Below, piece after piece: positions 10,884 through 63,612 of a stretch of 64,000 nucleotides of DNA. A program made the position numbers and the translations under genes. Origin of the DNA: Macrostomum hystrix (lineage: Eukaryota > Animalia > Platyhelminthes); the NCBI GenBank assembly GCA_950097015.1, contig CATNEN010000001.1, positions 12,090,001 through 12,154,000 of the forward strand, read 5' to 3'. Numbering within the stretch: position 1 is the stretch's first letter; every line of letters begins with the position of its first letter. The notes beneath the pieces were generated by a model, which saw only the letters and a list, made by a program, of their open reading frames with translations, made no database searches and had not been told where the DNA came from.

Positions 10884-11156
10884 CTACAGTGTGTTAACCT
10901 GTTCAAGCGACTTTAAAGCGTGATTTTAAGCGTCTGTTTTCCTGTTTTGTTTGTTTAGTTGCTGTTTTACTTCACGATTGACAATATATACTGGTTGCAC
11001 TGACGAATTTCACTTACTTTGACGAATTCGAAGTCACTTTCTCGAAAGAAATTACAATAGACACCCCTTCTCGTTCCCTTGAGCGCTCTATAGTTTTATA
11101 TAGGCTGACGAATTCGAAGTCACTTTTGACGAATCCGAAGTTGAAAAGGTATATTT

Positions 11157-28749: not shown

Positions 28750-30852
<2,103 letters not shown>

Positions 30853-32579: not shown

Positions 32580-34826
32580 TCAAAACGTGCACAGAGCCTT
32601 GAGAGTTCTGCAGCAGCCGCTCAGCGATTGAGCACAGTAGGTCTTGCAATTGGCTATGTCGTTGCTGTCGCGCAGGTACTTAATGTAGTCCCTCCAGCCG
32701 GCGCAGGTATCGCCCCAGGAGTCGCCCCAGAAGCAGGCCTCTTCGGCGGCCGGGGCCGCATCGTCGGCCGCGCACTCTCCGTTCCAGTTGCAGCTCTTCT
32801 TGTTGCCGCAAGGCGAGCCGATCGGTGCGCGAAGACCACCGCCCGTGACACCGCTGGAGGATCCAGCTGTCGGTGTGCAGAAGATCTTGGCGCAGATTGT
32901 TGCCGGATTCTTTGAGGCATCATCAGTGAGGAAAAACTTGCCAGGGCTGCTCGGATAAGCCAGTCGGCACACCTGGTCGAGAGTCATGCGACTGCCCTCT
33001 CGACCCGCCGCAGTCATGGAGGTGACCGATACGCCCTGACGGCTCCTCAGACAGTTGGCATTTCCTGGAAAGTTCCATATATAACGCTGCATTAACTACT
33101 TTAAGGAATGAGTGGCAGAGCTGTTGACAAGTTTGCCAATCGCTCCTAGATCCCTGAGATTAAATGCGCGGCGAAGCCACATATATTTGGGGCGCGGCCG
33201 TGGAGAGAAGGCTTGGGGGCTTGTCTTGTAGTTTACGACGCCCTTGGGGGGGCAAACCATCAAGGGTTAGTGAAAGAGTACACTATACATGACGATGAAA
33301 AAGTCTGGGTAGATGTACAGTATCTCTGTGACGATATCGCTGGTGTTCATTAGTAAGAGAAATGAGCAGTATTTTTTTGCTTTCTGCGGGTTTAATGTCA
33401 CTAAATAATTTTCCAGGGTCCAAAACCATCCTGAAAATGTTATTATCTTAAAGGGTGCAAAAAAGATCTGATATAAATTTACAAGTTCATTAATATTTTA
33501 TTACCACTGTTAATGTAGTTCTGAATGTACTTCACGGTGCAGTGTGAGAACCGATAGGAGTTCATTACATCGCTGAGACTATAAGAGCCAGCTGAGGGTG
33601 ACATGAGATACTTCGAATCCTTTTTGCACTGATCTTCGTCGTTGTCATGATCGGAGCCCAAATTGTGGGCCAGCTCGTGCGAAGCGGTGCCCCAGCTGTG
33701 GAGGCCCTGGTCCTCGTTGATGCTCTGGCGCGACTCCTGGCAGGCGCCGCCAACGTAGGCCATGCCGCAGACGGCGAAGTTGCCGCCACTCTGGATGTCG
33801 GTGCGCGTGAATGCCATCACGTGATCGGCTCCCTTGTCCTTTGAATAGGTCTTGATGTAGCCCAGGATAGCGCCGGCATCGTTGGCTGAAATGCGGAAGA
33901 GAAATTTGAATCTAACCATGCTCTCACTCACCAATTAACAATGAGAAACATTTTTTCCTTTATACCGAATGTAAATACAAGCTTGATTTTAAGTATCATT
34001 TAACACTCACCATCAGCAGAACCAGCTGGAGGCATCCAGGGTGCGTCTGCCTGGGTCTTGGCCACAGTGAAGCCGATGCACTTGATACTCATCGACGGCG
34101 AGCCGATGTTTCTGAAGGTGGTGTCCAGGCCGTTCAAAATGTGCGTGTAGTAGTAGTGAATCTCCGTCATGGCTGTGTCATCGGAGCCATAGATGGTCTT
34201 GAAAGCGTTCCACACAGTGTGATCAGCAAGCAGCCTTATCTCAACCTCGTACTCCGTGGTTCCTTGGTTTGACTGTCGCTTCTTGCGGCTCACAGCTCGC
34301 AAGATTTTATTCGTGTCAATCTGCGATTCAATGCCATCCGGCTTGGCGATGTTCTTTGTGACTCTGTGCTCTGATTTGCCCGTAGGCTCCAGGAAGTACG
34401 AGACTCCTTCGTGCATCACGTGACCGCTGATGCGCTTCTGACCGTTCACGTGTCGGACGCTGATCACTGACTTGGTGTCGATGTCCCTGTAGTGAGCGTG
34501 GTTGGCGTGATGAAGCTGACGGGCCGAAAACGTCCTCTCGATGCCATTCTCGGCAACTGTCATTGGCACATTCTCGAACGCCTCGGTCTTAGTCAGTGGA
34601 ATGCGGACTTTCTTGTTGGTGTACGGCAGTTGAACTTCCAGCTCCATGGTGGACGGATGCGGCCCGTCCAAGCTGGAGCTGGTGATGGACACTGAGGCTT
34701 GAGCCACCGCAGCGGTCAGCACAAGCAGCACTACAAATTAAACGAAGAGGATAGAGAACAGAAAACACTTAAAGCATTAAGGTGCTGAAAATTAAGAAAA
34801 TTTCTGAGCTTACCAAGGCGCAGCAT
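32580..34826 (-). CDS. Secreted M12B/ADAMTS-like metalloprotease, type A copy 1 (~532 aa)
   Basis: Exons 34826-34814 (ATGCTGCGCCTTG), 34730-34011, 33885-33505 and 33064-32580, all introns phase 1 GT-AG. Signal peptide MLRLVLLVLTAAVAQA, RKKR furin site, HELAHNLGSDHD, Met-turn YLMSP, Cys-rich C-terminus. TATAAAA at 34918-34912. Confidence 0.9.
33108..33400 (+). mobile_element. Older SINE family 1 copy in intron 3 of protease A1 (also in A2 at ~55560-55780)
   Basis: GAGTGGCAGAGC head and TTTGGGGCGCGGCCGTGGAGAGAAGGCTTGGGGGCTTGTC body match 19530-19670. Confidence 0.65.
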
Positions 34827-36281: not shown

Positions 36282-38143
36282 TCAGGCGCAGACGCTGGCC
36301 AGGGTCTTGCAGCAGATCGACTTCACCTGATTGCAGTAGTAGCTCCTGGTGGCTGAGTTCGGCGCAGCGGAGATGGTCTGGTAGAAGCTCTGGCACTGCT
36401 CAGCCGGAGCAGCGTCGCCAAAGAAGCAGGCCATGTTGATCACTGGCACCCGAGGGTCTGCCGTGCACTGTCCGTTCCAGTTGCAGCTCTTCTGGCTGCC
36501 GCACGGTGTTCCGACTGGAGCGCGAAGACCGCCGCCAGTGTTGCCGCTCGACGGTGTCGTCTGGCAGTAGATGGAGGCGCAGATCTCCGACGGGTTGTTG
36601 ACCACGTTGTTGCTCACCATGAACTTGCCCATGCTGTTGGGGAAGCTGAGCTTGCACACCTGGTCGAGCGAGAGGCGGGTGCCCTCGAGAACGTCCTCGG
36701 CCAGCTGCGGAACCTGACTACCGTCCGTGCTCTTCAGGCAGTTCGAGGAGCCTGAGGCAATGAAAATCGAAAGGGAAAGAAGGAGACAAGATTGCACTCA
36801 TATGACATCATTGTTGCACATTTTTTGCTTATAAATTTTGCAGATAACTAAACTCACCCAAACTGTTGATGTAGTTTTTGATACTGTTGACTGTGCAGTA
36901 CGAGAATCGGTAGGAGTTGTGCACATCCGCAAGGCTATAGATCTGGGTGGACGGCGACATAAGGTTCTTGGAGCCGGGGTTGCAGCTGTTGCCAGAGCCG
37001 TCGTGGGGCGAGCCCAGATTGTGGCCCAGCTCGTGGGCGGCGGTGCCCCAGCTGTGCAGACCCTGGTCCTCGTTGATGCTGACGCGACGAGCAGTGCAGG
37101 CTCCGCTCACGTAGGCCATGCCGCACACCGAAGAGCTTCCGTCGCCGGTGATGTCCTTCCGAGTGAAGGCCATGAAGTGGTCGCCTGTCTTGCCCGAGAT
37201 GTAGGAAGCCAGGGACGACAGGATTGCGCCTCCATCGAGGGCTGAACAAATGCGTGAGGCGTGAAGGCGTGAATTTGTTGAACACGGCAGGTTTACTTAC
37301 TTTCTGCTTTGATGAGGAATATGATGCACATGAAAACTCACAAGCAGGCATCCAACGGCTGTCGAAGGAGCTCTTTGCGATCGTGATGCCGATGCACTTC
37401 ACGCTGATGGAAGGTGAGCCCATGTTCCTGTAGGAAGTGTCGATTCCGTTCAGGATGTGGGTGTAGTAGTAGTGCAGCTCTGTGAGCGCCTTGGCGTCTC
37501 CGAAGATCGAGCGCATCTGCGACCACACGGTGTCGTCAATCAGCAGGTGGAGCTCGACAACGAACGTAGTCGGAGACCTGTTCGACTGTCGCTTCTTGCG
37601 GCTCTGAATTTCCGGCTGTCCGATGTCAATCTGCTTGGCCATGAGCTCCGGGTTGGCAGTGTTCATGGTGACGCGGTGCTCAGAGTCTCCGATCGGCTCC
37701 AGAAAGTACGAGGTGCCCTCGTGCATCACGTGACCACTGATCCGCCGCTTGCCGTCCGCCTCGCGAACGCTGATCACTGACTTGGAAGCAATGTCTCTGT
37801 AGTGAGCGTGGCTATCGTCGTGCACCTGACTCGACGAGAACGTAGTCGACAGTCCGTTGTCCAGCACCGTCATGGTAATGTTCTCAAAGTCGTCCGTCCT
37901 CGTCAGGGGAATGCGCACCGTCTTTTCATTCGGCAGCTTCACTTCGATCTCCATCGATGACGGATGACGGCCGTCATTGCTGGTTCGGCTGACCAAGACA
38001 GACGCGTTGGCCACCGCTAAGACGCTAAGCAGGAGCACTGCTGCTGTGGACAGTTTCAGGGTACTTGTTCAAGGCTGTCAATGCGATAAAATGATTCATT
38101 AGTCTTGCAAAAGTGCGACTGCTGACTTACCCAGATACTTCAT
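36282..38143 (-). CDS. Secreted M12B/ADAMTS-like metalloprotease, type B copy 1 (~520 aa)
   Basis: Exons 38143-38131 (ATGAAGTATCTGG), 38037-37342, 37241-36858 and 36751-36282, phase 1 introns. RKKR, HELGHNLGSPHD, NLMSP, C-terminal CCKTLASVCA. TATAAAA at 38223-38217. Confidence 0.9.
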
Positions 38144-39430: not shown

Positions 39431-41291
39431 ATGCGTCAGATTCGTGAGTTCCTTTCTAAAACTGAAGCTTTTTACGAGCCTCGTAATTTGCACTGTCTTT
39501 CTTTACCTTAAATCACCTGGAATGTCAAACAGCATGTTCGCATTCCAATTTCAGTCCTGCTTCTGCTGACTGTGGCCGTGGCTCAGGCCTCGGTCTCGGT
39601 GACCCGAACCAGCAGCACTGAGATGCACCCGTCGGCAATGGAGCTCGAGGTCCAGCTGCCAGACTCAAACAAGAAGATCCGCATCCCGCTGACAAAGATC
39701 GACGACTTTGAGAACATTCCAGTGACTGTGGCCGAGAACGGAGTCTCGAGGACCTTCTCGTCTCACCAGATTCACCACGCGAGTCACGCTCACTACAGAG
39801 ACGTCGAGACCAAGTCCGTGATCAGCGTCCGTCACGTAAACGGCCAGAGGCGCATCAGTGGTCACGTGATGCACGAGGGAACCTCGTACTTCCTCGAGCC
39901 TCTCGGAGAGTCCGCCCACAGCGTCACCAAGAAGTTCCAGGACTTAGAAGCGATGGCCAAGAAGCTCAGCATCGACAGGGAGATCGAGACTCGGAGGAAG
40001 AGACAGACGAATGACGACTGGACAACTTATAAAATAGAACTCTACCTTCTTTTGGACAGCAGAGTGTGGGATGAATTCAAGCAGGTCTACAGCACCGACT
40101 CGGCTGCCCTGACAGAGCTGCACTTTTACTACACCCACATCCTGAACGGAATCGACACTGCCTATAGGAACATCGGCACACCGTCCATCAGCGTGCGGTG
40201 TATCGGCATGACCATCTCGAAGACCCTTGTAGACGACACATGGATGGCGGGTGAAGGTGTGATTTGTCATGCAATTAGTAATTTCGGTGTCATTATTTAC
40301 TTGGGAAAGAAAATTATCTTACTTGAGTTCGCTGATTGCATTAAATATATATTTTCAGACACTGAGGGCAGCAATATCTTGACTGCTATGACCAGGTACA
40401 TCGTTGGCAAGACTGCCGATCACTTCATGGCCTTCACTCGCATGGACATAAGTGGCAGCGGGAGCTTCTCAGTTTGCGGCATGGCCTACGTTGGCGGTGT
40501 CTGCAAGAGCACAAAAGTCAGCATCAACGAGGACCAGGGGCTGCACAGCTGGGGCACCGCCGCTCACGAGCTGGCTCACAACCTGGGCTCTCGTCACGAT
40601 GGCAGCAACAACCTATGCAGCTCGACAAGCAAGTACCTGATGTCTCCAGTTGGTGGAATCTACAGTCTGGCAGACGTGGCCAACTCCTACCGTTTCTCTT
40701 CCTGCTCCGTGTCCTACATATCTCAGAACCTGAACACTCTTGGTAAACTGCACTTTTATATCGGGGGGTTTTAAAGATGTGGAAAATAATTGAAGCCAAA
40801 TTTATAAATGACGCATTCTAGGTTCTTCAAACTGCATGACAAGCGACCAGGGTAGTCGCCTCATGGACCTGACAACCAGAATTAAAGCGGGCATCCGCAT
40901 GACGCTGGACCAGGTCTGCAAACTCGCAATGCCCAACAGCCCCGGAAAGCTATTCGTCAGCTCTGAATTTTACTCCAATCCAGCTCTGATATGTGCGAAG
41001 ATCCTCTGCACCGTTTCCGCAGGCTCAGGCACCACCTCCAGCGGACTGCGCGCTCCTGTTGGCACGCCGTGCGGCAGCCAGAAGAGCTGCGACTGGAACG
41101 GTCAGTGCACAGCTGACTCTCAGGTGCCAGTGATTGACATGTCCTGCTTCTTTGGTGACAAGGCTTCGGCAGAGCAGTGCCAGAGCTTTTACGAGACCAT
41201 TGCCGCCGCGCCAACTGCGTCCATCAGGCAGAACTACTGTGGCCAGGTTTTTTCTGCGTGTTGCAAGACCCTGGCACCGCTGTGTTCCTGA
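39431..41291 (+). CDS. Secreted M12B/ADAMTS-like metalloprotease, type D (~520 aa)
   Basis: Exons 39431-39443 (ATGCGTCAGATTC|GTGAGT), 39555-40250 (or 40256), 40359-40742 and 40822-41291. Signal peptide MRQILLLLLTVAVAQA, RRKR, HELAHNLGSRHD, YLMSP. Confidence 0.88.
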
Positions 41292-42596: not shown

Positions 42597-44447
42597 ATGA
42601 AGTATCTGGGTAAGTCAGCAGTCGCACTTTTGCAAGACTCTAATGAATCATTTTATCGCATTGACAGCCTTGAACAAGTACCCTGAAACTGTCCACAGCA
42701 GCAGTGCTCCTGCTTAGCGTCTTAGCGGTGGCCAACGCGTCTGTCTTGGTCAGCCGAACCAGCAATGACGGCCGTCATCCGTCATCGATGGAGATCGAAG
42801 TGAAGCTGCCGAATGAAAAGACGGTGCGCATTCCCCTGACGAGGACGGACGACTTTGAGAACATTACCATGACGGTGCTGGACAACGGACTGTCGACTAC
42901 GTTCTCGTCGAGTCAGGTGCACGACGATAGCCACGCTCACTACAGAGACATTGCTTCCAAGTCAGTGATCAGCGTTCGCGAGGCGGACGGCAAGCGGCGG
43001 ATCAGTGGTCACGTGATGCACGAGGGCACCTCGTACTTTCTGGAGCCGATCGGAGACTCTGAGCACCGTGTCACCATGAACACTGCCAACCCGGAGCTCA
43101 TGGCCAAGCAGATTGACATCGGACAGCCGGAAATTCAGAGCCGCAAGAAGCGACAGTCGAACAGGTCTCCGACTACGTTCGTTGTCGAGCTCCACCTGCT
43201 GATTGACGACACCGTGTGGTCGCAGATGCGCTCGATCTTCGGAGACGCCAAGGCGCTCACAGAGTTGCACTACTACTACACCCACATCCTGAACGGAATC
43301 GACACTTCCTACAGGAACATGGGCTCACCTTCCATCAGCGTGAAGTGCATCGGCATCACGATCGCAAAGAGCTCCTTCGACAGCCGTTGGATGCCTGCTT
43401 GTGAGTTTTCATGACGTCATCATATTCCTATTCATCATATTCCTCATCAAAACAGAAAGTAAGTAAACCTGCCGTGTTCAACAAATTCACGCCTTCACGC
43501 CTCACGCATTTGTTCAGCCCTCGATGGAGGCGCTATCCTGTCGTCCCTGGCTTCCTACATCTCGGGCAAGACCGGCGACCACTTCATGGCCTTCACTCGG
43601 AAGGACATCACCGGCGACGGAAGCTCTTCGGTGTGCGGCATGGCCTACGTGAGCGGAGCCTGCACTGCTCGTCGCGTCAGCATCAACGAGGACCAGGGTC
43701 TGCACAGCTGGGGCACCGCCGCCCACGAGCTGGGCCACAATCTGGGCTCGCCCCACGACGGCTCTGGCAACAGCTGCAACCCCGGCTCCAAGAACCTTAT
43801 GTCGCCGTCCACCCAGATCTATAGCCTTGCGGATGTGCACAACTCCTACCGATTCTCGTACTGCACAGTCAACAGCATCAACAACTACATCAACAGTTTG
43901 GGTGAGTTTAGTTATATGAGTGCAATCTTGTCTCCTTATCTCCAATCTTATTTCCCTTTCGATTTTCATTGCCTCAGGCTCCTCGAACTGCCTGAAGAGC
44001 ACGGACGGTAGTCAGGTTCCGCAGCTGGCCGAGGACGTTCTCGAGGGCACCCGCCTCTCGCTCGACCAGGTGTGCAAGCTCAGCTTCCCCAACAGCATGG
44101 GCAAGTTCATGGTGAGCAACAACGTGGTCAACAACCCGTCGGAGATCTGCGCCTCCATCTACTGCCAGACGACACCGTCGAGCGGCAACACTGGCGGCGG
44201 TCTTCGCGCTCCAGTCGGAACACCGTGCGGCAGCCAGAAGAGCTGCAACTGGAACGGACAGTGCACGGCAGACCCTCGGGTGCCAGTGATCAACATGGCC
44301 TGCTTCTTTGGCGACGCTGCTCCGGCTGAGCAGTGCCAGAGCTTCTACCAGACCATCTCCGCTGCGCCGAACTCAGCCACCAGGAGCTACTACTGCAATC
44401 AGGTGAAGTCGATCTGCTGCAAGACCCTGGCCAGCGTCTGCGCCTGA
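42597..44447 (+). CDS. Secreted M12B/ADAMTS-like metalloprotease, type B copy 2
   Basis: Exons 42597-42609, 42705-43400, 43518-43901 and 43978-44447. Near-identical to copy 1 (inverted). TATAAAA at 42517-42523. Confidence 0.9.
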
Positions 44448-44753: not shown

Positions 44754-47700
44754 TGTTGTATCGTGACTTGACTTGAAGTGCGCAGTGTGGGGCTGCACCC
44801 CAATTGTTATTGGTGCTGAGTTTAGGACTGCTTGCTCTCTCCCCGCCTGCTCTGTCTGTCAATGTACGCTTATGCCTAACCGTCTAATCCATTAGCTGAT
44901 GCTTTACTCGTATCTGCATGTACATCTATGTGCAATGCCAACTATAATAAATAACAACCTCTCGCCCATTTGCGGCTCAAGTTTGGCTAGCCAGCCACGA
45001 CACGACAATGGCATCGCAAGCAGCCAGTGAATTACCTCTCAATGACCCAGCCATGGCTGAGGCCTGGCTGCAAAGTTTTGAAGCACTGTGCAGGCACAAA
45101 AAACTGCAAGATACAAACGAAGAGAAGCAGGTGACAGACCTCTTCCTTGCTCGAGCAGGAATCAATGCAGTCCGATCCGTCTCTATCATGGCAAAGCCGA
45201 AAAACATTGAGGACATGACCTTCAAGGACATCAAGAAAATGATCATCGGGCGACTCCAGCCCAAAAAGAAACTGGTGATTGCAGAGCGCACAAGGTTCAT
45301 GTCCCAGCGGCAGCTGTCAACAGAGTCGGCCCAGCAGTTCGCGGAGCGCTTGAGAGACGCGGCAAAGCACTGTGAGTTTGACAAGCTCAACGAACAAGGC
45401 TGCAAACAGTCAGCCGAGGATGACTTGATCCAAACACTGCTAATCAGCGGCTTGTGCGACCGCAGCCAGCGGACCAAAACACTTGAGCACATTCAGAGCT
45501 CTGAGAATCCAGTGACTCTGGACACGTGTCTGCAGTACATCCAGCAGTTAGAGCTCATCCAGAGCTACAGCTCAAGCGACCGATCTGCTGAAGCCCGAGA
45601 GCCTAGCAGAAGCTCCGAGATGGCTGAGAGTTCGACACCAGTTGCCAGCATCGACAGGAACCGCAATAGCGGTGCTCAGTGCAGGTCGTGTGGTCTGCAA
45701 CACCAGCCAGGCAAATGCCCTGCATTCGGGAAGACTTGTAACAAATGCCACCGCAGGAACCACTTCGCTGCAGTCTGCAGGAGCAGCGCCAAGTCCAAGT
45801 CGGTTGCACCTGCCCATGAAATCGACACGAGCGAGTGTGAGCAGGCAGGCATCTACACCATCGTCGGCAACGAGAGCGGCAGCGGCAGCATAAAAACTGT
45901 GCTCATTGAAGGCAAGCCGTTCAAAATGCAGCTCGACTCTGGATCCGGTGCGAGCATCATTCCGATAAACTTCTGGAGGAGCCTCGGTGAGCCCAAGCTA
46001 CGAAAGTCCAAGCTGAGACTGCGACAATTTGACGGAACGGTCATCAGAACTAGAGGATGCTTCACGGCGCTCATCGAAGTCGGGAGACAAATCGCCTGTG
46101 CGGACGTGACGGTCACTGAATGCACAAAGGAGCACGGCCTCATCGGAACAGACGTGCTGGACTTCAAGCTGGACACAGCGACTGTCAATCAAGTGGAGCG
46201 CAGCAGCGAACCGCTAGGCAAGCTCAAAGGTTTCCGTGCTCGGGTCCTGCTCAGGGAGAACGCTCAGCCCAGCTTCTTCGATGCCCGGCCGCTCCCGATT
46301 CATCTCAAGCCGCTGGTGGTGGCTAAGCTGCGGACGATGATCGACGCCGGGATCCTCGAGCCTGTGCCGCCAGGCGGCAGCAGTTGGGCATCGCCCATTG
46401 TGGTGGTGCGCAAGGCCGACGGAGACCTGAGAATCTGCTCCGACTACAAGGTCGGGGTGAACCCGAAGATCTGCTCTGACGCCTACCCACTGCCCAACAT
46501 CGAGCAAGCCTTCAGTGCCCTGGCAGGTATGAAGCACTTCGCAATTGTAGACTTAACAAATGCCTACAACCAGATTGAGCTAGACGAGGCCTCCAGAGAA
46601 ATACTCACCATCAACACGCCCCTAGGCCTGCTCAGATGGACGCGCATGCCATTCGGGGTGAAGACGGCCAGTGCGCAGTTCCAGGCTGCCATGGAGGCAA
46701 CGGTCGGCGGTGCGGTCAGCAACCTGGTGATCTACCAAGACGACATGTGCGTTGGCGCCACCACAGCGGACGAATTGGACAGCAAAGTCCGGGACCTGCT
46801 GAGAGCGCTTTCTGATGCCGGCATGTCGATCAACGAAAAAAAATGCGTTTTCCGCAGCACGGAAATCAGTTTCCTTGGCTACCGCATCGCGGCTGACGGC
46901 GTGCGCCCTGATCGGAAGCTGGTGGAGAAAATCCTCGGCGTGAGCACCCCGGCGAGCAAAAAGGAACTCGAATCGTTTCTAGGAATGACGGTGTACTACT
47001 CGCGCTACATCAAGTCCTACTCGGAGAAGACCGAGCCGCTGACCGAGCTGCGGAGCAAGAAAGTCGCGTTCCATTGGGGACCTCGGCAGCAGAAAGCGTT
47101 TGACGAGCTCAAGCAGGCGCTTGCAGCTTCCCCAGTGGTCCGAATCTTCGATGCAAGAAAGCGCACAACTCTGACTACTGACGCCAGCGAGAAGGCCATA
47201 GCAGCAATCCTCTCTCAGGACGAGCACCCAGTGATGTACCTGTCAAGACGGCTGACACCGGCTGAGAGAAATTACTCGAATATCGAGCGAGAGGCCCTGG
47301 CTGTGGTGTGGGCCACTCAGAGAGCCAGACACTTTCTTCTCGGCAGCAAGTTTGTGCTCCAGTGCGATCATCAACCATTGGAGTTCATTTTTAGTCCGTC
47401 TCGGGAGCTTCCAAAGGTCACATCGGCTAGAATCATGCGCTGGGCGTTGCAGCTGTCGGCCTTCGACTACGAAATCTCGTACATCAAGGGCAGCTGCATC
47501 CCGCATGTCGACGCGCTGTCTCGAATTGAATTCAAGGAGGAAGGCGATGGAGACGACTGCCAGGAAAGTTTCGTTCACTGGACAGAGACGGAGGTGCTCA
47601 AGCTGGAGCAGATCAGAGACGCCACTGACAATGACCCGGTGCTCGCCAGCGTCAAGCGCAGGATCCGCAGCAATGCGTGGAACAACTGCTCGGCAGCGGA

Positions 47701-49118
47701 GCGACCGTATAAAGCCGTCCGCCAGCAGCTCTCAGTGGAGAATGGCGTCGTCTGCCTGAGAGACCTGGTGGTCCCGCCTAGCCGGCTGCGGCAAGACGTG
47801 CTGCGAGCGGCTCACGGCGACTCGCACGGCGGTGCCCTAGCGACAAGAAATCGACTCAAGCTGGAAGCCTGGTGGCCGGGTCACTGCGAGGACGTCGAAA
47901 ACTTCGTCAAGCAATGCCAGCGATGCGCGGAGATCCGTCCAATGCCTGCCAGAACGTGCCACACCTGGCCGGCGGAAAATGGTCCCTGGAGACGCGTGCA
48001 CATGGACCATGCTCACGTTCCCGGCTTCGGCCTGCTGCTCATTGTGGTGGACGCCTTCTCCGGCTGGCCGGAAGCGGTGCCTGTTGCCGACAAGAGCGCG
48101 ACGACGGTCATCAAGGTACTCCGCTTGATTTTTTCCCGCCTGGGTGTGCCTCATACATTGGTGGCGGACAATGCTCCGGAGTTCCGTGACCAGCAGCTGC
48201 ACGAGTGGCTCAAGAAGATCGGCTGCTCGCCGATGCACTCGCCGCCGTATCATCCGCAGTCAAATGGGTGCGCCGAGCGCATGGTCCAGACCGTCAAGAA
48301 GGGGCTGCGGGCCTTCGCCGTGCACCAGGGCAGGTTCGACGCGTACCTCGCCAAGCTGCTGCTTAACTACCGGGCCACTCCGCGGGGCGACGGGCGTGGC
48401 AGTCCGTCTGCGCTTATGGGGCGACAGCTGCGAAGTCCGCTGACCCTCCAATTCGATACCGATGCGCCGCTCGTCTACCAGTCGCGACCGGGGGTGCCGG
48501 CTGAGACCGTCCGCTTTGTGGTACAGGCCGGCCACAACACGGCCGTGGTCACCCGGGACAAGGACGACAGGCCTGTGCTGGCACACCGGGATCAGCTGCG
48601 CTTGTGTCCGAGTCCAAGCCGGGCGGAAGTTACGGACAACACTGACGACGGCGGCCGGGACCCTGACGATGCCGGCCGGAGCCATGACGACGGCGACCGG
48701 AACCCTGACGAAGGCGGCCGGAACCCGGGACCTGATAGCCAGCGGCCAGACGCAGCGGCACCACCGCAGCAGACCGCTGAAGCTACACCGGAGCCCCGAC
48801 GAAGCTGCAGGTCGACCAAGGGAGTCGCCCCAGACCGACTGTCTCCTCGTTGGTGATGAGGGGATGTTGTATCGTGACTTGACTTGAAGTGCGCAGTGTG
48901 GGGCTGCACCCCAATTGTTATTGGTGCTGAGTTTAGGACTGCTTGCTCTCTCCCCGCCTGCTCTGTCTGTCAATGTACGCTTATGCCTAACCGTCTAATC
49001 CATTAGCTGATGCTTTACTCGTATCTGCATGTACATCTATGTGCAATGCCAACTATAATAAATAACAACCTCTCGCCCATTTGCGGCTCAAGTTTGGCTA
49101 GCCAGCCACGACACGACA
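44754..49118 (+). mobile_element. Intact Ty3/Gypsy LTR retrotransposon (Mag-like)
   Basis: 254-bp LTRs at 44754-45007 and 48865-49118 (TG..CA, identical by eye). TSD ATTTG at 44749-44753 and 49119-49123. PBS starting TGGCATCGCAAGCAG at 45009. Purine tract TGAGGGGA before the 3' LTR. Confidence 0.97.
45008..48856 (+). CDS. Gag-Pol polyprotein (Gag with two zinc knuckles, PR, RT, RH, IN), 1282 aa
   Basis: CRSCGLQHQPGKC and CNKCHRRNHFAAVC knuckles, LDSGSG protease, YQDD RT, TDASE/NYSNIERE RNase H, HHCC plus MDHA/ADNAPEF/NGCAER integrase. Gypsy domain order, no env. Confidence 0.96.
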   Translation: MASQAASELPLNDPAMAEAWLQSFEALCRHKKLQDTNEEKQVTDLFLARAGINAVRSVSIMAKPKNIEDMTFKDIKKMIIGRLQPKKKLVIAERTRFMSQRQLSTESAQQFAERLRDAAKHCEFDKLNEQGCKQSAEDDLIQTLLISGLCDRSQRTKTLEHIQSSENPVTLDTCLQYIQQLELIQSYSSSDRSAEAREPSRSSEMAESSTPVASIDRNRNSGAQCRSCGLQHQPGKCPAFGKTCNKCHRRNHFAAVCRSSAKSKSVAPAHEIDTSECEQAGIYTIVGNESGSGSIKTVLIEGKPFKMQLDSGSGASIIPINFWRSLGEPKLRKSKLRLRQFDGTVIRTRGCFTALIEVGRQIACADVTVTECTKEHGLIGTDVLDFKLDTATVNQVERSSEPLGKLKGFRARVLLRENAQPSFFDARPLPIHLKPLVVAKLRTMIDAGILEPVPPGGSSWASPIVVVRKADGDLRICSDYKVGVNPKICSDAYPLPNIEQAFSALAGMKHFAIVDLTNAYNQIELDEASREILTINTPLGLLRWTRMPFGVKTASAQFQAAMEATVGGAVSNLVIYQDDMCVGATTADELDSKVRDLLRALSDAGMSINEKKCVFRSTEISFLGYRIAADGVRPDRKLVEKILGVSTPASKKELESFLGMTVYYSRYIKSYSEKTEPLTELRSKKVAFHWGPRQQKAFDELKQALAASPVVRIFDARKRTTLTTDASEKAIAAILSQDEHPVMYLSRRLTPAERNYSNIEREALAVVWATQRARHFLLGSKFVLQCDHQPLEFIFSPSRELPKVTSARIMRWALQLSAFDYEISYIKGSCIPHVDALSRIEFKEEGDGDDCQESFVHWTETEVLKLEQIRDATDNDPVLASVKRRIRSNAWNNCSAAERPYKAVRQQLSVENGVVCLRDLVVPPSRLRQDVLRAAHGDSHGGALATRNRLKLEAWWPGHCEDVENFVKQCQRCAEIRPMPARTCHTWPAENGPWRRVHMDHAHVPGFGLLLIVVDAFSGWPEAVPVADKSATTVIKVLRLIFSRLGVPHTLVADNAPEFRDQQLHEWLKKIGCSPMHSPPYHPQSNGCAERMVQTVKKGLRAFAVHQGRFDAYLAKLLLNYRATPRGDGRGSPSALMGRQLRSPLTLQFDTDAPLVYQSRPGVPAETVRFVVQAGHNTAVVTRDKDDRPVLAHRDQLRLCPSPSRAEVTDNTDDGGRDPDDAGRSHDDGDRNPDEGGRNPGPDSQRPDAAAPPQQTAEATPEPRRSCRSTKGVAPDRLSPRW

Positions 49119-49289
49119 ATTTGATTTTTAGGTCCTTAGTCTCGTCCGACAATCTCAATTTGAGGCTACAAATTACAGCAAAGATTAGTCGGTAGAATTT
49201 CAAGTACGCCTTTAAAGTCAAATGTTTAATTTGTGAATCGTTTTGAACAATTACTTTGTATTGGACGATAGGTCAATGAGGCGACTGTC

Positions 49290-50105
49290 TCAGGCCCAAG
49301 AGAGTGCGTTCGCTGGGCACCTGTGAAGAAAAACGATCTATCAACGATTGGAACAACGATTCTGGTGGCCGACAATGACCAAGGACGTGAAGTACTTCGT
49401 AGCAACGTGCGACAAGTGTCAGAAGACGGCTCGAATCCCGAGCAGCCACCGGGTGAAGCTTGTGCAAGTGCCTGGAGTGGGAGGAGGCCTTTACCAAAGT
49501 TATCATCGACCTCAGCGGGCAGTATTCAAGGATGGCGAGCGGTCACTAGTACATCCTGTCGGTTATCGATGCGGTTACTCGGTTTCCAGAAGGATTCCCA
49601 CTGCGCAAGATCGATGCGGAGTCTGTGGCCAAAGCATTGATGGACTGCTTTGTAAGGACCGGCTTCCCTTAGGAGATCCAGAGCGACAGGGACACCAACT
49701 CGGCACTGCTGCAGGCCCTGTACCGGTGCACCGGAGTTGAAGGCATCCAGTCGACACCGTACCACCCGCAAAGCCAAGTGCTGGTGAAGAGGTTTCCACG
49801 GCACACTCAAGACTATGTTGAGGCGGCTGCCAGCTCGCGAGAAAAAGAAGTGGGACCCATACCTGCCTTATTTACTTTTTGCTCCCCTTTCGAACTGTTG
49901 TATGGACGGACCGTACGAGGACCGCTAGACTTGCTGCGACAGACCTGGGACGAGCAACCCTCCAAAGTGAAGAAAGACATCATCTCCATCGTGCTGGCCC
50001 AGAGAGATCGGCTGCGTGCCGGTCAGGCAGCAGCACGGAGCAACGAAGACGTAGCTCGGAAGTGCCAAAAGCTCTGGTACGACTGGAAGTCGCGGGAACG
50101 AGAAC
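49290..50105 (+). mobile_element. Degenerate Gypsy integrase fragment (a different, older element)
   Basis: Frameshifted pieces: QRFWWPTMTKDVKYFVATCDKCQK, EIQSD, STPYHPQSQ, SPFELLYGRTVRGPLDLLRQTW, QKLWYDWKSRER. Confidence 0.8.
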
Positions 50106-50325
50106 GGGAAGTTTTGCTGGTTCCTGCGATTCAATTCTGACCTGAATTTTGGTCCGGCTTCGTTCTTGTGGTGGAGGATGTGACGTTAACTTTTCTTTGT
50201 ACTCGTACCACCCCGTGGAGTCGTTGCTATAAATAGATGTGTGTAGTGCTGAGAGGCTGTACGTGTTTGGACCTCCCTGGCTCAACTTGTAACCTGTGAA
50301 TCGTGTGTCTCTCATTTTTACTGGA

Positions 50326-52985: not shown

Positions 52986-54138
52986 CAGGCGGTTTGCGTG
53001 AATTATCGAGGTGTAGCATATTTTATCGAGGGGTTTGCTAAATTATCAAGTTTGGTTGCTAAAATTATCGAGGGGAAGCATGAATTATCGACGAAATAGC
53101 ATGAATTATCGACGAAATAGCATGAATTATCGACGAAATAACATGAATTATCGACGAAATAACATGAAGTATCGACGAAATAACATGAATTATCATGAGT
53201 AAAACCGGAACTGTCGAAGTGGTAGCATGACTTGTCGAGGGCGGAGCGTAAATTGTCGAGGGAGTAAAATGCATTATCAAGGGGAAAGCATAAATCATCA
53301 GAGAGCACCGAGGGCCGATTCTCTTAATTGAATTGGATTGCGTCACTACTTTTCTTACCCGCGAGTGTGTTAGCCGAACAGAGGGTCCGATACCGCCAAT
53401 CGAATAGGATTGCGTCACTGCTTTTAGCACTCGTACGTGCAAGCGAATGATAGCGGCTACATTAATACATACGTTACCATAATGTGATACTAGTACTAAC
53501 AGTGACCTAACTATTATAAATTAGAAACAATAAATATTTTCCTGAACACAATTGCTGTGATAAAAGCAGAGTTAAAAAACTGCTGATATGATGTCATTAT
53601 AAATATATTGAGCCTAGAAAGCTTTTCTGGTACACTGGGAGCTTGGAGCGAGATCCGAAGTGAAAACTGAGAAGACTAAAACTCGACTACGAGTTGTTCG
53701 TAGCGACCAAGTCTTGGTAGTCTTGGCAGACGCTATTGACTAATACTTATTGGGACAATCCAACATTGAAGAGAAGGCCCAATAATCCCCATACGAAGCA
53801 TTAGATTTTCAGGAAAAAGCATGAGCTTTCCAGGGGACAGCATGAGATTTTCTAGGGGAGAAGTAATGGCTTTTAGTGAGAAGTAAAGTTTTTTAGTGTA
53901 ACAGCAATTTTTTCGATACTAAGACCATATCCAATAGCTGCATGGCTGCATGGCTGAATCGCTGCATGCTCAACAATATCCGCTGGAGAAAAGCCAGGCG
54001 GCGGTGCATAAAAAGCGTCGAACCTTAGTCAGCCTAAGGCTACACGTATAAAACTTTCGCCGTTAGTTCCATTAATCAGACTTTAAAACCGGCAAGTCTT
54101 TAAACCAAACGATTCGCGCCCAAAAGTCGAGCCCAAAA

Positions 54139-56291
54139 ATGCTGCGCCTTGGTAAGCTCAGAAATTTTCTTAATTTTCAGCACCTTAATGCTTTAAGTGT
54201 TTTCTGTTCTCTATCCTCTTCGTTTAATTTGTAGTGCTGCTTGTGCTGACCGCTGCGGTGGCTCAAGCCTCAGTGTCCATCACCAGCTCCAGCTTGGACG
54301 GGCCGCATCCGTCCACCATGGAGCTGGAAGTTCAACTGCCGTACACCAACAAGAAAGTCCGCATTCCACTGACTAAGACCGAGGCGTTCGAGAATGTGCC
54401 AATGACAGTTGCCGAGAATGGCGTCGAGAGGACGTTTTCGGCCCGTCAGCTTCATCACGCCAACCACGCTCACTACAGGGACATCGACACCGAGTCAGTG
54501 ATCAGCGTCCGACACGTGAACGGTCAGAAGCGCATCAGCGGTCACGTGATGCACGAAGGAGTCTCGTACTTCCTGGAGCCTACGGGCAAATCAGAGCACA
54601 GAGTCACAAAGAACATCGCCAAGCCGGATGGCATTGAATCGCAGATTAACACGAATAAAACCTTGCGAGCTGTGAGCCGCAAGAAGCGACAGTCAAACCA
54701 AGGAACCACGGAGTACGAGGTTGAGATAAGGCTGCTTGCTGATCACACTGTGTGGAACGCTTTCAAGACAATCTATGGCTCCGATGACACAGCCATGACG
54801 GAGATTCACTACTACTACACGCACATTTTGAACGGCGTGGACACGGCTTTCAGAAATATCGGCTCGCCGTCGATGAGTATCAAGTGCATCGGCTTCACTG
54901 TGGCCAAGACCCAGGCAGACGCACCCTGGATGCCTCCAGCTGGTTCTGCTGATGGTGAGTGTTAATGATACTTAAAATCAAGCTTGTATTTAGATTCGGT
55001 ATAAAGGAAAAATTGTTTCTCATTGTTTATTGGTGAGTGAGAGCATGGTTAGATTCAAATTTCTCTTCCGCATTTCAGCCAACAATGGAGCCGCTATCCT
55101 GGGCTACATAATGACCTATTCGAAGGACAAGGGAGCCGATCACGTGATGGCATTCACGCGCACCGACATCCAGAATGACGACAAATCCGACATCTTCGGC
55201 ATGGCCTACGTTGGCGGCGCCTGCCAGGAGACGCGCCAGAGCATCAACGAGGACCAGGGCCTCCACAGCTGGGGCACCGCTTCGCACGAGCTGGCCCACA
55301 ATTTGGGCTCCCGTCATGACAACGACGAAGATCAGTGCAAGAAGGCTTCGAAGTATCTCATGACACCCTGGCCAAACTCTTATAGTCTCAGCGATGTAAT
55401 GAACTCCTATCGGTTCTCACCCTGCACCGTGAAGTACATTCAGAACTACATTAAGAGCGGTAATAAAATATTAATGAACTTGTATATTTATATCTGAATT
55501 AGTATTGCACGGTCGAAGAAAATAATATTTGCAGGATGGTTGTGAGCACTGGCAAATTATTTAGTGACATTTGACCCGCAGTCAGCAAGATTCAATACTG
55601 CCTATTTATCTGTCTACTGAGCGATATCATCGCAGAGACACCGTACATCTACCCTGACGTTTTCATCGTCATGTAGTGTACTCTTTCACTAACCCTTGAT
55701 GGTTTGCCCCCCCCCAAGGGCGTCGCAAATTACACGACAAGCCCCCAAGCCTTCTCTCCACGGCTGCGCCCCAAATATATGTAGCTTTCTATATGGAACT
55801 TTCCAGGAAATGCCAACTGTCTGAGGAGCCGTCAGGGCGTATCGGTCACCTCCATGACTGCCGCGGGTCGAGAGGGCAGTCGCATGACTCTCGACCAGGT
55901 GTGCCGACTGGCTTATCCGAGCAGCCTTGGCAAGTTTATCCTCACTGACGATGTCTTAAAAAATCCGGCAACAATCTGCGCCGAAATTTTCTGCTTACCG
56001 ACAGCTGAATCCTCCTACGGTGTCTCAAACTATGGTCTTCGCGCACCGATCGGCTCGCCTTGCGGCAACAAGAAGAGCTGCAACTGGAACGGAGAGTGCG
56101 CGGCCGACGATGCGGCCCCGGCCGCCGACGAGGCCTGCTTCTGGGGCGACTCCTGGGGCGATACCTGCGCCGGCTGGAGGAACAGCATCAAGTACATGCG
56201 CGACAGAAACGAGATAGCCAATTCCAAGACTTTATGTGCTCAATCGCTGAGCGGCTGCTGCAGAACTCTCAAGGCTCTGTGCACTTTTTGA
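54139..56291 (+). CDS. Secreted M12B/ADAMTS-like metalloprotease, type A copy 2 (~532 aa)
   Basis: Exons 54139-54151, 54235-54954, 55079-55459 and 55807-56291. HELAHNLGSRHD, YLMTP. TATAAAA at 54047-54053. Confidence 0.9.
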
Positions 56292-60126: not shown

Positions 60127-61987
60127 ATGAAGTATCTGGGTAAGTCAGCAGTCGCACTTTTGCAAGACTAATGAATCATTTTATCGCATTGACAGCCTTG
60201 AACAAGTACCCTGAAACTGTCCACAGCAGCAGTGCTCCTGCTTAGCGTCTTAGCGGTGGCCAACGCGTCTGTCTTGGTCAGCCGAACCAGCAATGACGGC
60301 CGTCATCCGTCATCGATGGAGATCGAAGTGAAGCTGCCGAATGAAAAGACGGTGCGCATTCCCCTGACGAGGACGGACGACTTTGAGAACATTACCATGA
60401 CGGTGCTGGACAACGGACTGTCGACTACGTTCTCGTCGAGTCAGGTGCACGACGATAGCCACGCTCACTACAGAGACATTGCTTCCAAGTCAGTGATCAG
60501 CGTTCGCGAGGCGGACGGCAAGCGGCGGATCAGTGGTCACGTGATGCACGAGGGCACCTCGTACTTTCTGGAGCCGATCGGAGACTCTGAGCACCGCGTC
60601 ACCATGAACACTGCCAACCCGGAGCTCATGGCCAAGCAGATTGACATCGGACAGCCGGAAATTCAGAGCCGCAAGAAGCGACAGTCGAACAGGTCTCCGA
60701 CTACCTTCGTTGTCGAGCTCCACCTGCTGATTGACGACACCGTGTGGTCGCAGATGCGCTCGATCTTCGGAGACGCCAAGGCGCTCACAGAGCTGCACTA
60801 CTACTACACCCACATCCTGAACGGAATCGACACTTCCTACAGGAACATGGGCTCACCTTCCATCAGCGTGAAGTGCATCGGCATCACGATCGCAAAGAGC
60901 TCCTTCGATAGCCGTTGGATGCCTGCTTGTGAGTTTTCATGTGCATCATATTCCTCATCAAAGCAGAAAGTAAGTAAACCTGCCGTGTTCAACAAATTCA
61001 CGCCTTCACGCCTCACGCATTTGTTCAGCCCTCGATGGAGGCGCTATCCTGTCGTCCCTGGCTTCCTACATCTCGGGCAAGACCGGCGACCACTTCATGG
61101 CCTTCACTCGGAAGGACATCACCGGCGACGGAAGCTCTTCGGTGTGCGGCATGGCCTACGTGAGCGGAGCCTGCACTGCTCGTCGCGTCAGCATCAACGA
61201 GGACCAGGGTCTGCACAGCTGGGGCACCGCCGCCCACGAGCTGGGCCACAATCTGGGCTCGCCCCACGACGGCTCTGGCAACAGCTGCAACCCCGGCTCC
61301 AAGAACCTTATGTCGCCGTCCACCCAGATCTATAGCCTTGCGGATGTGCACAACTCCTACCGATTCTCGTACTGCACAGTCAACAGCATCAACAACTACA
61401 TCAACAGTTTGGGTGAGTTTAGTTATCTGCTAAATTCATTGCGACTAATGTGCAACAATGATGTCATATGAGTGCAATCTTGTCTCCTTCTTTCCCTTTC
61501 GATTTTCATTGCCTCAGGCTCCTCTAACTGCCTGAAGAGCACGGACGGTAGTCAGGTTCCGCAGCTGGCCGAGGACGTTCTCGAGGGCACCCGCCTCTCG
61601 CTCGACCAGGTGTGCAAGCTCAGCTTCCCCAACAGCATGGGCAAGTTCATGGTGAGCAACAACGTGGTCAACAACCCGTCGGAGATCTGCGCCTCCATCT
61701 ACTGCCAGACGACACCGTCGAGCGGCAACACTGGCGGCGGTCTTCGCGCTCCAGTCGGAACACCGTGCGGCAGCCAGAAGAGCTGCAACTGGAACGGACA
61801 GTGCACGGCAGACCCTCGGGTGCCAGTGATCAACATGGCATGCTTCTTTGGCGACGCTGCTCCGGCTGAGCAGTGCCAGAGCTTCTACCAGACCATCTCC
61901 GCTGCGCCGAACTCAGCCACCAGGAGCTACTACTGCAACCAGGTGAAGTCGATCTGCTGCAAGACCCTGGCCAGCGTCTGCGCCTGA
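60127..61987 (+). CDS. Secreted M12B/ADAMTS-like metalloprotease, type B copy 3
   Basis: Exons 60127-60139, 60233-60928, 61029-61412 and 61518-61987. Protein essentially identical to the other B copies. TATAAAA at 60047-60053. Confidence 0.9.
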
Positions 61988-62189: not shown

Positions 62190-63612
62190 GAGAACTTAGG
62201 CAGCTTTTCTTGACGCCAGCCGAACACAATTTGGGTCCGCTCAGTATACGCTCGTACAGGCGTTTGTGTGATCTCAGTTGGTCTTTGTATCGCCCCAGAA
62301 GAACGTCTCGTCGACGGCCGGAGCGGCGCTGTCGTTTGTACACTCTCCGTTCCAGTTGCAACTCTTCTGGTCGCCGCACGGAGTGACGACTGGAGCGCGA
62401 AGTCCGCTCGATGTGCTACCACCACCGGAGCTGGTTTGGCAGAAAATTTTGTCGCAGATGATCGCCGGATTGCTTTTTTGTTCCCTACTGATAACAACCT
62501 TTTCGGGACCCTTGGGTCTAGCCCAGGGGTCGGCAACCTTATATACCCCGCGGGCTAAAGAGAGAATCTTAAAGACGACGGCGGGCCGCATGAAGAAAGG
62601 GGAGAGATCAGACAGGTGAGAGATAAGACAAGTGAGAGATGAGAAAGGTGAGAGATGAGACGGGGGAGATAAGACACAAGAGAGAGATGAGACGGGGGAG
62701 ATAAGACACAAGAGAGAGATGAGACGGGGGGAGATAAGACGCAAGAGAGATGAGACGGGGAGATAAGACGCAAGAGAGAGATAAGACGCATGAGACGGGG
62801 GAGATAAGACGCAAGAGAGATGAGACAGGGGGGAGACGAAAAATGGGAGAGATGAGACAGGGGAGAGACGAAAAAGGGGAGAGATGAGACAGGGGAGAGA
62901 TGAGACTGGGGAGAGATAATTCAGGGCAGAGATAAGACAGGGGAGAAATGAGACTGGGGAGAGATAAGACAGGGGAGAGGTGAGACAGGGAGAGATGAGA
63001 CTGGGGAGAGATAAGACGGGAGAGATAAGACAGGGGAGAGATAAGACAGGGGAGAGATAAGACAGGGGAGAGATAAGACAGGGGAGAGATAAGACAGGGG
63101 AGAGATAAGACAGGGGAGAGATAAGACAGGGGAGAATTGAGACTGGGGAGAGATAAGACAGGGGAGAGGTGAGACAGGGAGAGATGAGATAGGGTGTACT
63201 GTAGAGTAGGTGTTAGGAGGAGCTAAGGGCCAGATTTGGGAGCTTTGAGGGCCGCATCAGGCACGCGGGCCGGAGGTTGCCGACCCCTGGTCTAGCCAGT
63301 CGGCACACCTGTTCAGGGTCATTCGAGTGCCTTCTCGAGTGTTGGACGATAGGTCACTAAGGCGGCTGCCCTGATCGATTGTGAGACAACTTGATGAGTT
63401 TGAATTAATTGAATTGAATTGAACAAAGCCCCTTGTCCTCGTTGATGCTGACTTTTGTACTCTGGCAGACACCAGCAACGTAGGCCATCCCGCACACTGA
63501 GAAGCTCCCGCTGCCACTTATGTCCATGCGAGTGAAGGCCATGAAGTGATCGGCAGTCTTGCCAACAATGTAATTGATCATTGCCTTGAGGATGTTGCTA
63601 CCCTCAGTGTCT
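62190..63612 (-). pseudogene. Metalloprotease pseudogene (D-like), zinc motif deleted, interrupted by a hAT MITE
   Basis: TEGSNILKAMINYIVGKTADHFMAFTRMDISGSGSFSVCGMAYVAGVCQSTKVSINEDKGL stops just before the HExxH region and joins exon-4-like SSSCLTIDQGSRL..GTRMTL. It then has a frameshift, the MITE, and NPAIICDKIFCQT..FFWGDTKTN* with a premature stop. Confidence 0.85.
62524..63289. mobile_element. Non-autonomous hAT element (MITE) carrying an internal GA-rich minisatellite
   Basis: TIRs CAGGGGTCGGCAACCT / AGGTTGCCGACCCCTG. 8-bp TSD GTCTAGCC at 62516-62523 and 63290-63297. Interior made of GAGATAAGACAGGGGA repeats. Confidence 0.92.

What the first reader, a model, noticed from the sequence alone, without database searches (positions are those of the whole stretch)
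55174..55197. Eight consecutive codons, each with exactly one nonsynonymous change, at the predicted substrate-binding edge of paralogs A1 and A2
Seen: A1 (33790-33767) reads agt ggc ggc aac ttc gcc gtc tgc (SGGNFAVC) and A2 reads aat gac gac aaa tcc gac atc ttc (NDDKSDIF): 8 replacement changes and no silent change. The 240-codon exon 2 differs at only about 6 residues. Other clustered changes lie just after the Met-turn (MSPSAGS vs MTPWPNS) and in a loop of the Cys-rich module (TAGSSSGVTGG vs TAESSYGVSNY). Known: in metzincins the segment before the G-x-A-Y edge strand and the segment after the Met-turn line the substrate cleft and S1' pocket. Inference: strong diversifying selection on specificity or inhibitor escape, as in venom and reproductive proteases. 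A2 gains an acidic patch and loses two cysteines.
Basis: partly seen in the sequence, partly recalled or inferred. Interest (0 to 1): 0.85.

Follow-up and report, generated by a model that had tools for sequence, protein, structure and literature searches.

The report
Flatworm protease duplicate with remodelled cleft
A duplicated zinc-protease gene of a flatworm (likely a Macrostomum species) has changed eight amino acids in a row in a loop predicted to line its active-site cleft, much faster than nearby silent sites, likely because selection favoured a new substrate range: a clear new case of a familiar process.

Summary
A1 and A2 are intact 532-aa ADAMTS-like (M12B) proteases in a tandem cluster; their only close relatives are Macrostomum proteins. 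All 8 changes lie on the A2 branch (35 vs 6 polarised changes gene-wide). The patch aligns gap-free with residues 323-330 of the ADAMTS4 S2' loop; two other clusters fall after the Met-turn and in the D*-domain hypervariable segment. These loops are conserved in A1 and two orthologues (20 of 22 sites). The run exceeds neutral expectation after scan correction (P at most 6e-5 at the silent rate, 5e-3 at the intron rate, 0.09 at the highest local rate). Caveats: exons 3-4 overall have dN/dS near 1; site models do not single out the patch; the quiet exon 2 reflects gene conversion; only one cysteine is truly lost. One of 4 public runs holds A2's patch, apparently as RNA; two hold a third loop version. 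In M. lignano, independently derived paralogues with remodelled loops are expressed in prostate and pharyngeal glands. Verdict: real, likely positive selection on specificity, a known kind of process.

The parts
55174..55197 (+). A2 codons 277-284, the eight-residue patch; equivalent of ADAMTS4 323-330 (S2' loop) just before the invariant Gly of the edge strand
33767..33790 (-). A1 codons 277-284, ancestral form of the loop (identical to P0003, 7 of 8 identical to M. lignano Mlig018498)
54139..54151 (+). A2 exon 1 (start of a predicted signal peptide, read by eye)
   Evidence: joint confirmed in spliced contigs
54235..54954 (+). A2 exon 2: prodomain, RKKR at 153-156 (likely furin site, inferred), first part of catalytic domain
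55079..55459 (+). A2 exon 3: active-site half of the M12B domain; D274 (55165-55167) and E302 (55249-55251) match the ADAMTS4 calcium ligands Asp320 and Glu349
55285..55317 (+). Zinc motif HExxHxxGxxH (H314, E315, H318, H324), intact; Met-turn M339 at 55360-55362
55363..55377 (+). Second cluster, codons 340-344 after the Met-turn (4 residues changed, all A2-derived)
55807..56291 (+). A2 exon 4: ADAM_CR/D*-like module and Cys-rich tail
56007..56033 (+). Third cluster, codons 439-447, in the segment matching the D* hypervariable region
54017..54422 (+). 406-base tract identical between A1 and A2 (upstream DNA, exon 1, intron 1, start of exon 2): likely gene-conversion tract
32580..34826 (-). A1 gene, exons 34826-34814, 34730-34011, 33885-33505, 33064-32580; 532 aa
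   Evidence: a spliced 1719-base contig in run X7 has its 10, 30 and 34 differences from A2
36282..38143 (-). Paralogue B1 (522 aa)
39431..41291 (+). Paralogue C1 (522 aa)
42597..44447 (+). Paralogue B2 (522 aa)
60127..61987 (+). Paralogue B3 (522 aa)
62270..63610 (-). Broken C-like copy: lacks the zinc-motif part and is interrupted by a repeat (approximate ends)

Best explanation
A2 is a duplicate of the conserved ADAMTS-like protease gene A1, and it likely gained a new substrate specificity through positive selection on three segments predicted to contact substrate, while gene conversion with A1 likely kept the 5' part near-identical. Shown: intact gene, intact zinc motif and Met-turn, 8 of 8 patch changes and 35 of 41 polarisable changes on the A2 branch, the patch matching the ADAMTS S2' loop, and conservation of these loops in A1 and its orthologues. 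Inferred: a small, neutral, Gly-rich loop became an acidic one (1 to 4 Asp in 274-284) and the residue before the edge-strand Gly went from Cys to Phe, which with the bulky changes after the Met-turn would reshape the primed side of the cleft, perhaps favouring basic residues there; the Cys-rich loop would change an exosite. By analogy with M. lignano, where independently derived paralogues are expressed in prostate and pharyngeal glands, A2 may have been recruited to a glandular or seminal secretion; this last step is untested.
For: Scan-corrected run probability at most 6e-5 with all sites neutral at the silent-site distance 0.075 and 5e-3 at the intron-3 distance 0.14. Patch pN 0.41-0.44 versus pS 0.07-0.08 in exons 3-4. 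35 A2-derived, 6 A1-derived, 5 ambiguous of 46 differences (binomial P about 5e-6, my arithmetic); A2 branch 5 and 16 times longer than A1's in the two domain trees. 20 of 22 loop sites invariant in A1, P0003 and Mlig018498 versus 231 of 354 elsewhere in the mature protein (P 0.01), so the loops were constrained in the parent gene. Gap-free alignment to the ADAMTS1/4/5 CGxxxCDTL loop (loop defined in PMC4885070); a model of the A1-like P0003 (pLDDT 93.9) has ADAMTS1, 5 and 4 M+D* structures as its ten best matches. Branch-site test: 2dL 5.3 with A2 as foreground, 0.17 with A1. A third loop version in runs X1 and X8 appears to share some of A2's letters, which suggests stepwise change. B1-B3 differ at 9 silent and 1 replacement codon. 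M. lignano derived paralogues vary most in the same two catalytic loops (P 7e-7) and are tail/prostate/pharynx-expressed and up in groups, while the A1 orthologue is 'non-specific'.
Against: dN/dS over exons 3-4 is 0.9-1.1 and 0.6-0.8 outside the three clusters, so relaxation contributes. At the highest local non-coding distance (0.22, 5' half of intron 3) the scan-corrected bound rises to 0.09. Within the patch, 8 replacements and 0 silent changes are not significant (P 0.06-0.10). Codon models give no patch codon a posterior above 0.74 and their signal comes from codons with two changes, a known source of false positives (caveat recalled). The loop is hypervariable in sequence and length in 108 distant relatives. 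27 of 42 mature differences fall on trio-invariant sites, against 28 expected at random. A2's patch is in only 1 of 4 runs laid. No atomic distances could be measured and A2 itself was not folded. The transcript mapped to Mlig-pro43 is classed 'Testis' in the positional data, and ISH probes may cross-react among paralogues.
Confidence: 0.7

Rival explanations
1. Relaxed constraint on a redundant duplicate: A2 drifts neutrally, and the patch is an older island that escaped gene conversion in a tolerant surface loop.
For: dN/dS near 1 in exons 3-4; divergence is a mosaic from 0 of 83 (intron 1) to 31 of 158 (5' half of intron 3); the loop tolerates most residues and 7-21-residue lengths across the family; changes hit conserved sites at the random rate.
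Against: Even with every site neutral the run has P at most 6e-5 to 5e-3 at distances 0.075-0.14; an old island should carry silent changes, and the 7 other third positions are identical; clusters sit on three substrate-facing segments; zinc ligands, Met-turn and 17 shared cysteines are kept.
Confidence: 0.17
2. The patch came in one step, by conversion from an unseen A-type donor or by a local mutational or template-switch burst.
For: An 8-base match 24 bases upstream covers 3 of the 8 derived sites; 6 of 8 changes go to A; run X1 seems to hold an A2 locus with the A1-type loop (depth 187 fits two A1-type copies, 188, better than one, 139); the whole genome could not be searched.
Against: No donor in the window: nearest other match has 8 mismatches, and B and C copies are 14-16 away. 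One change per codon has P 0.009 for 8 random hits, all are replacements, and versions in X1 and X8 appear to carry subsets of the derived letters (truncated table). A close A-type donor would only move the burst to another locus.
Confidence: 0.07
3. Selection acted on regulation or loss of activity, not on specificity: A2's new D282 matches ADAMTS4 Asp328, which binds the zinc in the closed form, so A2 would be self-inhibited, a decoy or an inhibitor-resistant form.
For: Gap-free alignment puts D282 on Asp328 and the calcium ligands are kept.
Against: A2 lacks the loop disulfide of the ADAMTS motif; 12 of 108 distant relatives have Asp in that column; it does not explain the other two clusters.
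Confidence: 0.06

Closest known systems
ADAMTS1/4/5 metalloprotease plus D* (ADAM_CR) unit, MEROPS M12B
   Same: Fold (TM 0.78-0.81 by target length for the ten best matches), zinc motif, Met-turn, same-length loop between the calcium-binding Asp and the edge-strand Gly, D* domain directly after the catalytic domain.
   Different: No CGxxxCDTL disulfide, no thrombospondin repeat or spacer; ends in a short Cys-rich tail; 20-22% identity.
M. lignano Mlig018498 (orthologue) and the derived paralogues Mlig001203, Mlig012476, Mlig003244 (orthogroup OG0000142 holds Mlig018498, 001203, 008682)
   Same: Same architecture; A1 is 401 of 532 identical to Mlig018498g1; derived paralogues show remodelling of the same loops and loss of the same Cys.
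   Different: A2 is a separate, much younger duplication (groups with A1, support 99); its tissue is unknown. Published work annotates expression only, not these loops.
Peaks of divergence under gene conversion (red/green opsin exon 5; RHCE/RHD), PMC3924837
   Same: Homogenised tracts beside narrow peaks of replacement changes at functional sites.
   Different: Here the change is almost one-sided (A2), there are three peaks, and no function has been measured.
Snake venom metalloproteinase and seminal protease expansions
   Same: Tandem duplication of a secreted M12B gene with fast change at substrate-facing residues (recalled; PMC7245079 seen as a search listing only).
   Different: No evidence of venom function here; the proteins resemble ADAMTS M+D* more than the venom MDC layout.

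Membership tests
M12B (reprolysin/adamalysin) metzincin | HExxHxxGxxH zinc motif | tested here: met
   H314-E315-H318-H324 in A1 and A2
M12B (reprolysin/adamalysin) metzincin | Met-turn 12-24 residues after the motif | tested here: met
   M339, 15 residues after H324; Met in 104 of 108 relatives
M12B (reprolysin/adamalysin) metzincin | Reprolysin profile above the curated cut-off and M12B fold | tested here: met
   PF01421 35.9 bits vs cut-off 20.8; fold of P0003 model
M12B (reprolysin/adamalysin) metzincin | Proteolytic activity | not testable with these tools
   needs an assay
ADAMTS proper | D* (ADAM_CR) domain directly after the catalytic domain | tested here: met
   PF17771 E 3.9e-5, below its cut-off; structural match over both domains
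ADAMTS proper | Thrombospondin type 1 repeat and spacer | tested here: not met
   No such Pfam hit in exons 2-4; the protein ends at 532 aa. Filed as ADAMTS-like, not ADAMTS
ADAMTS1/4/5 S2' loop | CGxxxCDTL consensus with disulfide | tested here: not met
   Same position and length, flanking calcium ligands kept, but no loop cysteines
Positive selection on a duplicate under gene conversion | Local replacement rate above the neutral rate | tested here: met
   Met for distances 0.075-0.14, marginal at 0.22
Positive selection on a duplicate under gene conversion | Homogenised non-coding tract beside the peak | tested here: met
   1 of 264 upstream and intron-1 sites versus 43 of 342 in intron 3
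Positive selection on a duplicate under gene conversion | Site-model support at the patch codons | tested here: inconclusive
   Tests significant overall, patch posteriors 0.08-0.74
Seminal fluid protease | Prostate expression and transfer at mating | not testable with these tools
   Only M. lignano paralogues have published prostate expression

The most novel reading that the evidence does not exclude
Macrostomum species repeatedly recruit copies of one conserved ADAMTS-like protease into prostate and pharyngeal secretions, each time rewriting the same three specificity loops, and gene conversion then swaps these loops among A-type copies like cassettes, giving a polymorphic repertoire of seminal proteases in an arms race between mates. 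Hints: run X1 seems to pair an A1-type S2' loop with A2-type intron 3 and post-Met loop; a spliced X5 contig pairs A2's post-Met loop with an A1-like exon 4 (may be an assembly chimera); X8 shows third versions.
Probability: 0.2. Interest if true: 0.72.

Novelty: new member of a known kind. Interest (0 to 1): 0.5.

Why it matters
A1 and A2 are a natural pair, 91% identical, whose differences pile up on three predicted specificity segments, so they allow a direct test of how the S2' loop, the post-Met wall and the D* exosite set M12B specificity. The family also offers named candidate seminal proteases in a genus used for sexual-conflict work with RNAi, where these genes have so far only expression labels. 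The evolutionary process itself (duplication, conversion, selection on the cleft) is well known.

Tried and rejected
Whole-genome donor search: no genome is held for this window, so only the 64 kb were searched. No listed run is on record as RNA; RNA status of X5 and X8 is the tool's guess, backed by spliced contigs. A complete difference table for the third loop version was not obtained; one search shows 40 of 217 rows. First fold with 16 sequences was poor (pLDDT 40.8) and was discarded. The second structural aligner gave no result. Search for short fragments of relatives: 3 candidates, none significant. Exon 4 alone against PDB sequences: 0 hits. Earlier scan findings: none. Rejected: A1/A2 as an assembly error or sequencing noise (A2's patch exact in an X5 contig; A1 counts matched in X7); B or C paralogues as donor (14-16 mismatches); adenine-directed diversification of the DGR type (direction is A1 to A2 and changes go to A, not from it); the exon-2 contrast as evidence of selection; loss of a second cysteine.

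Full report
OBSERVATION. Aligning the two copies and building gene models gives two intact four-exon genes of 532 codons with GT-AG introns, A1 on the minus strand (34826-32580) and A2 on the plus strand (54139-56291). Exon 2 has 6 residue differences; exons 3-4 have 40 in 288 codons. A run of 8 has P at most 2e-5 under random placement and at most 2e-4 if only the 142 most variable sites may change. All three introns are skipped by a 1719-base contig in run X7 whose 10, 30 and 34 differences from A2 equal A1's counts per exon.

WHAT IT IS. Exon 3 scores above the cut-off for Reprolysin (M12B) and exon 4 weakly for ADAMTS_CR_2. The close relatives are Macrostomum lignano proteins and one unnamed assembly protein, P0003; beyond them identity falls to 37% or less. 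The window is therefore most likely another Macrostomum species (inference). It holds a cluster: A1, A2, three B copies, C1 and a broken C-like copy. A model of mature P0003, whose three loops are those of A1 but for one residue, is confident (pLDDT 93.9, 121 sequences) and its ten best matches are ADAMTS1, 5 and 4 catalytic-plus-D* structures. There is no thrombospondin repeat, so it is ADAMTS-like, not an ADAMTS.

WHERE THE CHANGES FALL. Exon 3 aligns without gaps to ADAMTS1, 4 and 5 from the FTR strand to the edge-strand Gly. PMC4885070 (section 3.1 read whole; passages) defines ADAMTS4 322-330, CGXXXCDTL, as the mobile S2' loop, with calcium ligands Asp320 and Glu349. With an offset of 46, D274 and E302 are those ligands and the patch is 323-330. 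A2's new D282 falls on Asp328, which binds the zinc in the closed form (PMC9620172, passages). The second cluster follows the Met-turn, in the lower subdomain that forms part of the pocket wall. The third aligns with the D* segment after the second Cys, which in ADAMTS13 carries the exosite residues R349 and L350 (my placing of those numbers on the chain is approximate).

DIRECTION AND RATE. With P0003 and Mlig018498 as outgroups, 35 of 46 differences are A2-derived, 6 A1-derived, 5 unclear; the patch is 8 of 8 A2-derived. Trees agree. C284 is a true loss; C511 is peculiar to A1. In A1 and the two outgroups 20 of 22 loop sites are invariant against 231 of 354 other mature sites: the loops were constrained until A2 changed them, although across 108 distant relatives the first loop is hypervariable. 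Patch pN is 0.41-0.44; pS in exons 3-4 is 0.07-0.08; intron 3 differs at 43 of 342 sites, its 5' half at 31 of 158. With all sites neutral, a run of 8 anywhere in exons 3-4 has P at most 6e-5, 5e-3 and 0.09 at distances 0.075, 0.14 and 0.22. Intron 3 contains a high-copy repeat (depth about 1e6 in X1; matches elsewhere in the window), so it is an imperfect clock.

RESULTS AGAINST. dN/dS is 0.9-1.1 over exons 3-4 and 0.6-0.8 outside the clusters; the lack of silent changes in the patch is not significant. My own codon models (exons 3-4; A1, A2, B1, C1) give 2dL 10.7 for the pair (P about 0.005 on 2 df, my arithmetic) and 5.3 for a branch-site test on A2 (0.17 on A1), but the flagged sites are mostly codons with two changes and no patch codon passes 0.74. 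The evidence for the patch is spatial, not per site. The quiet exon 2 is not evidence of selection: upstream DNA (1 of 181), intron 1 (0 of 83) and prodomain silent sites (0 of about 115-134) are as quiet, with a 406-base identical tract, which points to gene conversion. Peaks of divergence beside converted tracts are a described signature (PMC3924837, passages).

DONOR OR BURST. No donor lies in the window; B and C patches are 14-16 bases from A2's and 8-10 from A1's. The rest of the genome could not be searched. An 8-base repeat 24 bases upstream covers 3 derived sites, but other runs suggest steps.

PUBLIC RUNS. Of 12 runs listed I laid 4. X5 holds a 117-base contig identical to A2 across the patch, beside an A1-type one; it has spliced contigs and no depth over intron 2 and most of intron 3, so A2's patch is probably transcribed, though RNA status is a guess and that contig crosses no intron. 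X7 shows only A1. X1 and X8 hold a third version that, read from a table showing 40 of 217 rows, is S-H-G-R-F-A-I-C in X1 and similar in X8, apparently sharing the bases behind I283 and the second base of codon 278 with A2; X8 also seems intermediate after the Met-turn. X1 has A2's intron 3 exactly but no A2 patch, and the depth of its A1-type contig (187) fits two copies (188) better than one (139); contig depth is a weak measure of copy number.

PARALLEL IN M. LIGNANO. Besides the conserved orthologue, M. lignano has a separate clade of derived paralogues with many versions of all three loops, all lacking the Cys at 284; among five of them the two catalytic loops hold more states than the rest of the domain (P 7e-7; loops are expected to vary more, and this is protein-level only). 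In the supplements of PMC7336406 (rows seen; passages) all 3 Mlig001203 transcripts and Mlig012476.g1 are up in groups of eight versus isolated worms, with in situ signal in prostate and pharynx or pharyngeal glands (also testes for one probe), while 3 of 3 Mlig018498 and 3 of 3 Mlig008682 transcripts are 'non-specific' with no social label. PMC5977470 (passages; supplement rows) lists RNA815_5404.1, Mlig-pro43, among prostate-limited transcripts, annotated 'thrombospondin motifs 20-like'; its primer, read by eye, encodes a motif found in the derived clade, though the transcript it is mapped to is classed 'Testis'. PMC4490696 (passages) shows RNA815_5404.2 with a head and tail pattern. This is analogy: A2 is an independent duplicate and its tissue is unknown.

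NOVELTY. Searches for Macrostomum with metalloproteinase, ADAMTS, reprolysin, seminal fluid protease and positive selection found no paper on the evolution of these genes; the library lacks most subscription journals and bioRxiv supplements were not visible. The process is known from opsins, blood-group genes and venom proteases (the last recalled; PMC7245079 seen as a listing only). Verdict: a real and unusually clean case, likely positive selection on the cleft of a young duplicate (0.7); new member of a known kind; interest 0.5.

Noticed in passing
window 44754-49120: LTR retrotransposon between B2 and A2 with 256-base LTRs that are 100% identical, TG..CA-like ends and a 4-base target duplication (TTTG): a recent insertion, internal frames look broken.
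   Followed up: partly
window 28753-30852 (-): Suppressor of Hairless / CSL gene (LAG1, BTD, TIG_SUH domains) next to the protease cluster.
   Followed up: partly
window 24619-25146 (+): Last exon of a rhodopsin-family GPCR (7tm_1).
   Followed up: no
window 26442-27696 (+): Frameshifted frames that by eye resemble a tyrosine-recombinase (Crypton-like) remnant; no Pfam hit at E 0.01.
   Followed up: partly
window 49327-50137 (+): Integrase zinc-binding fragment of a second retroelement right after the LTR element.
   Followed up: no
window 55521-55790 and 33446-33109, also near 11151, 19316, 32125, 56600: A dispersed high-copy repeat sits in intron 3 of both A genes and in their 3' flanks; depth about 1e6 in run X1.
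   Followed up: partly
window 36282-38143, 42597-44447, 60127-61987: Three B copies are kept almost identical in protein (9 silent, 1 replacement codon among them), a contrast to A2.
   Followed up: yes
window 53958 and 35007: Homology between A1 and A2 stops about 180 bases upstream of the start codon, so A2 has new upstream DNA and could be regulated differently.
   Followed up: no
window 56180-56240: A fourth, looser cluster of A2-derived changes (codons 497-514) in the C-terminal helical Cys-rich tail.
   Followed up: no
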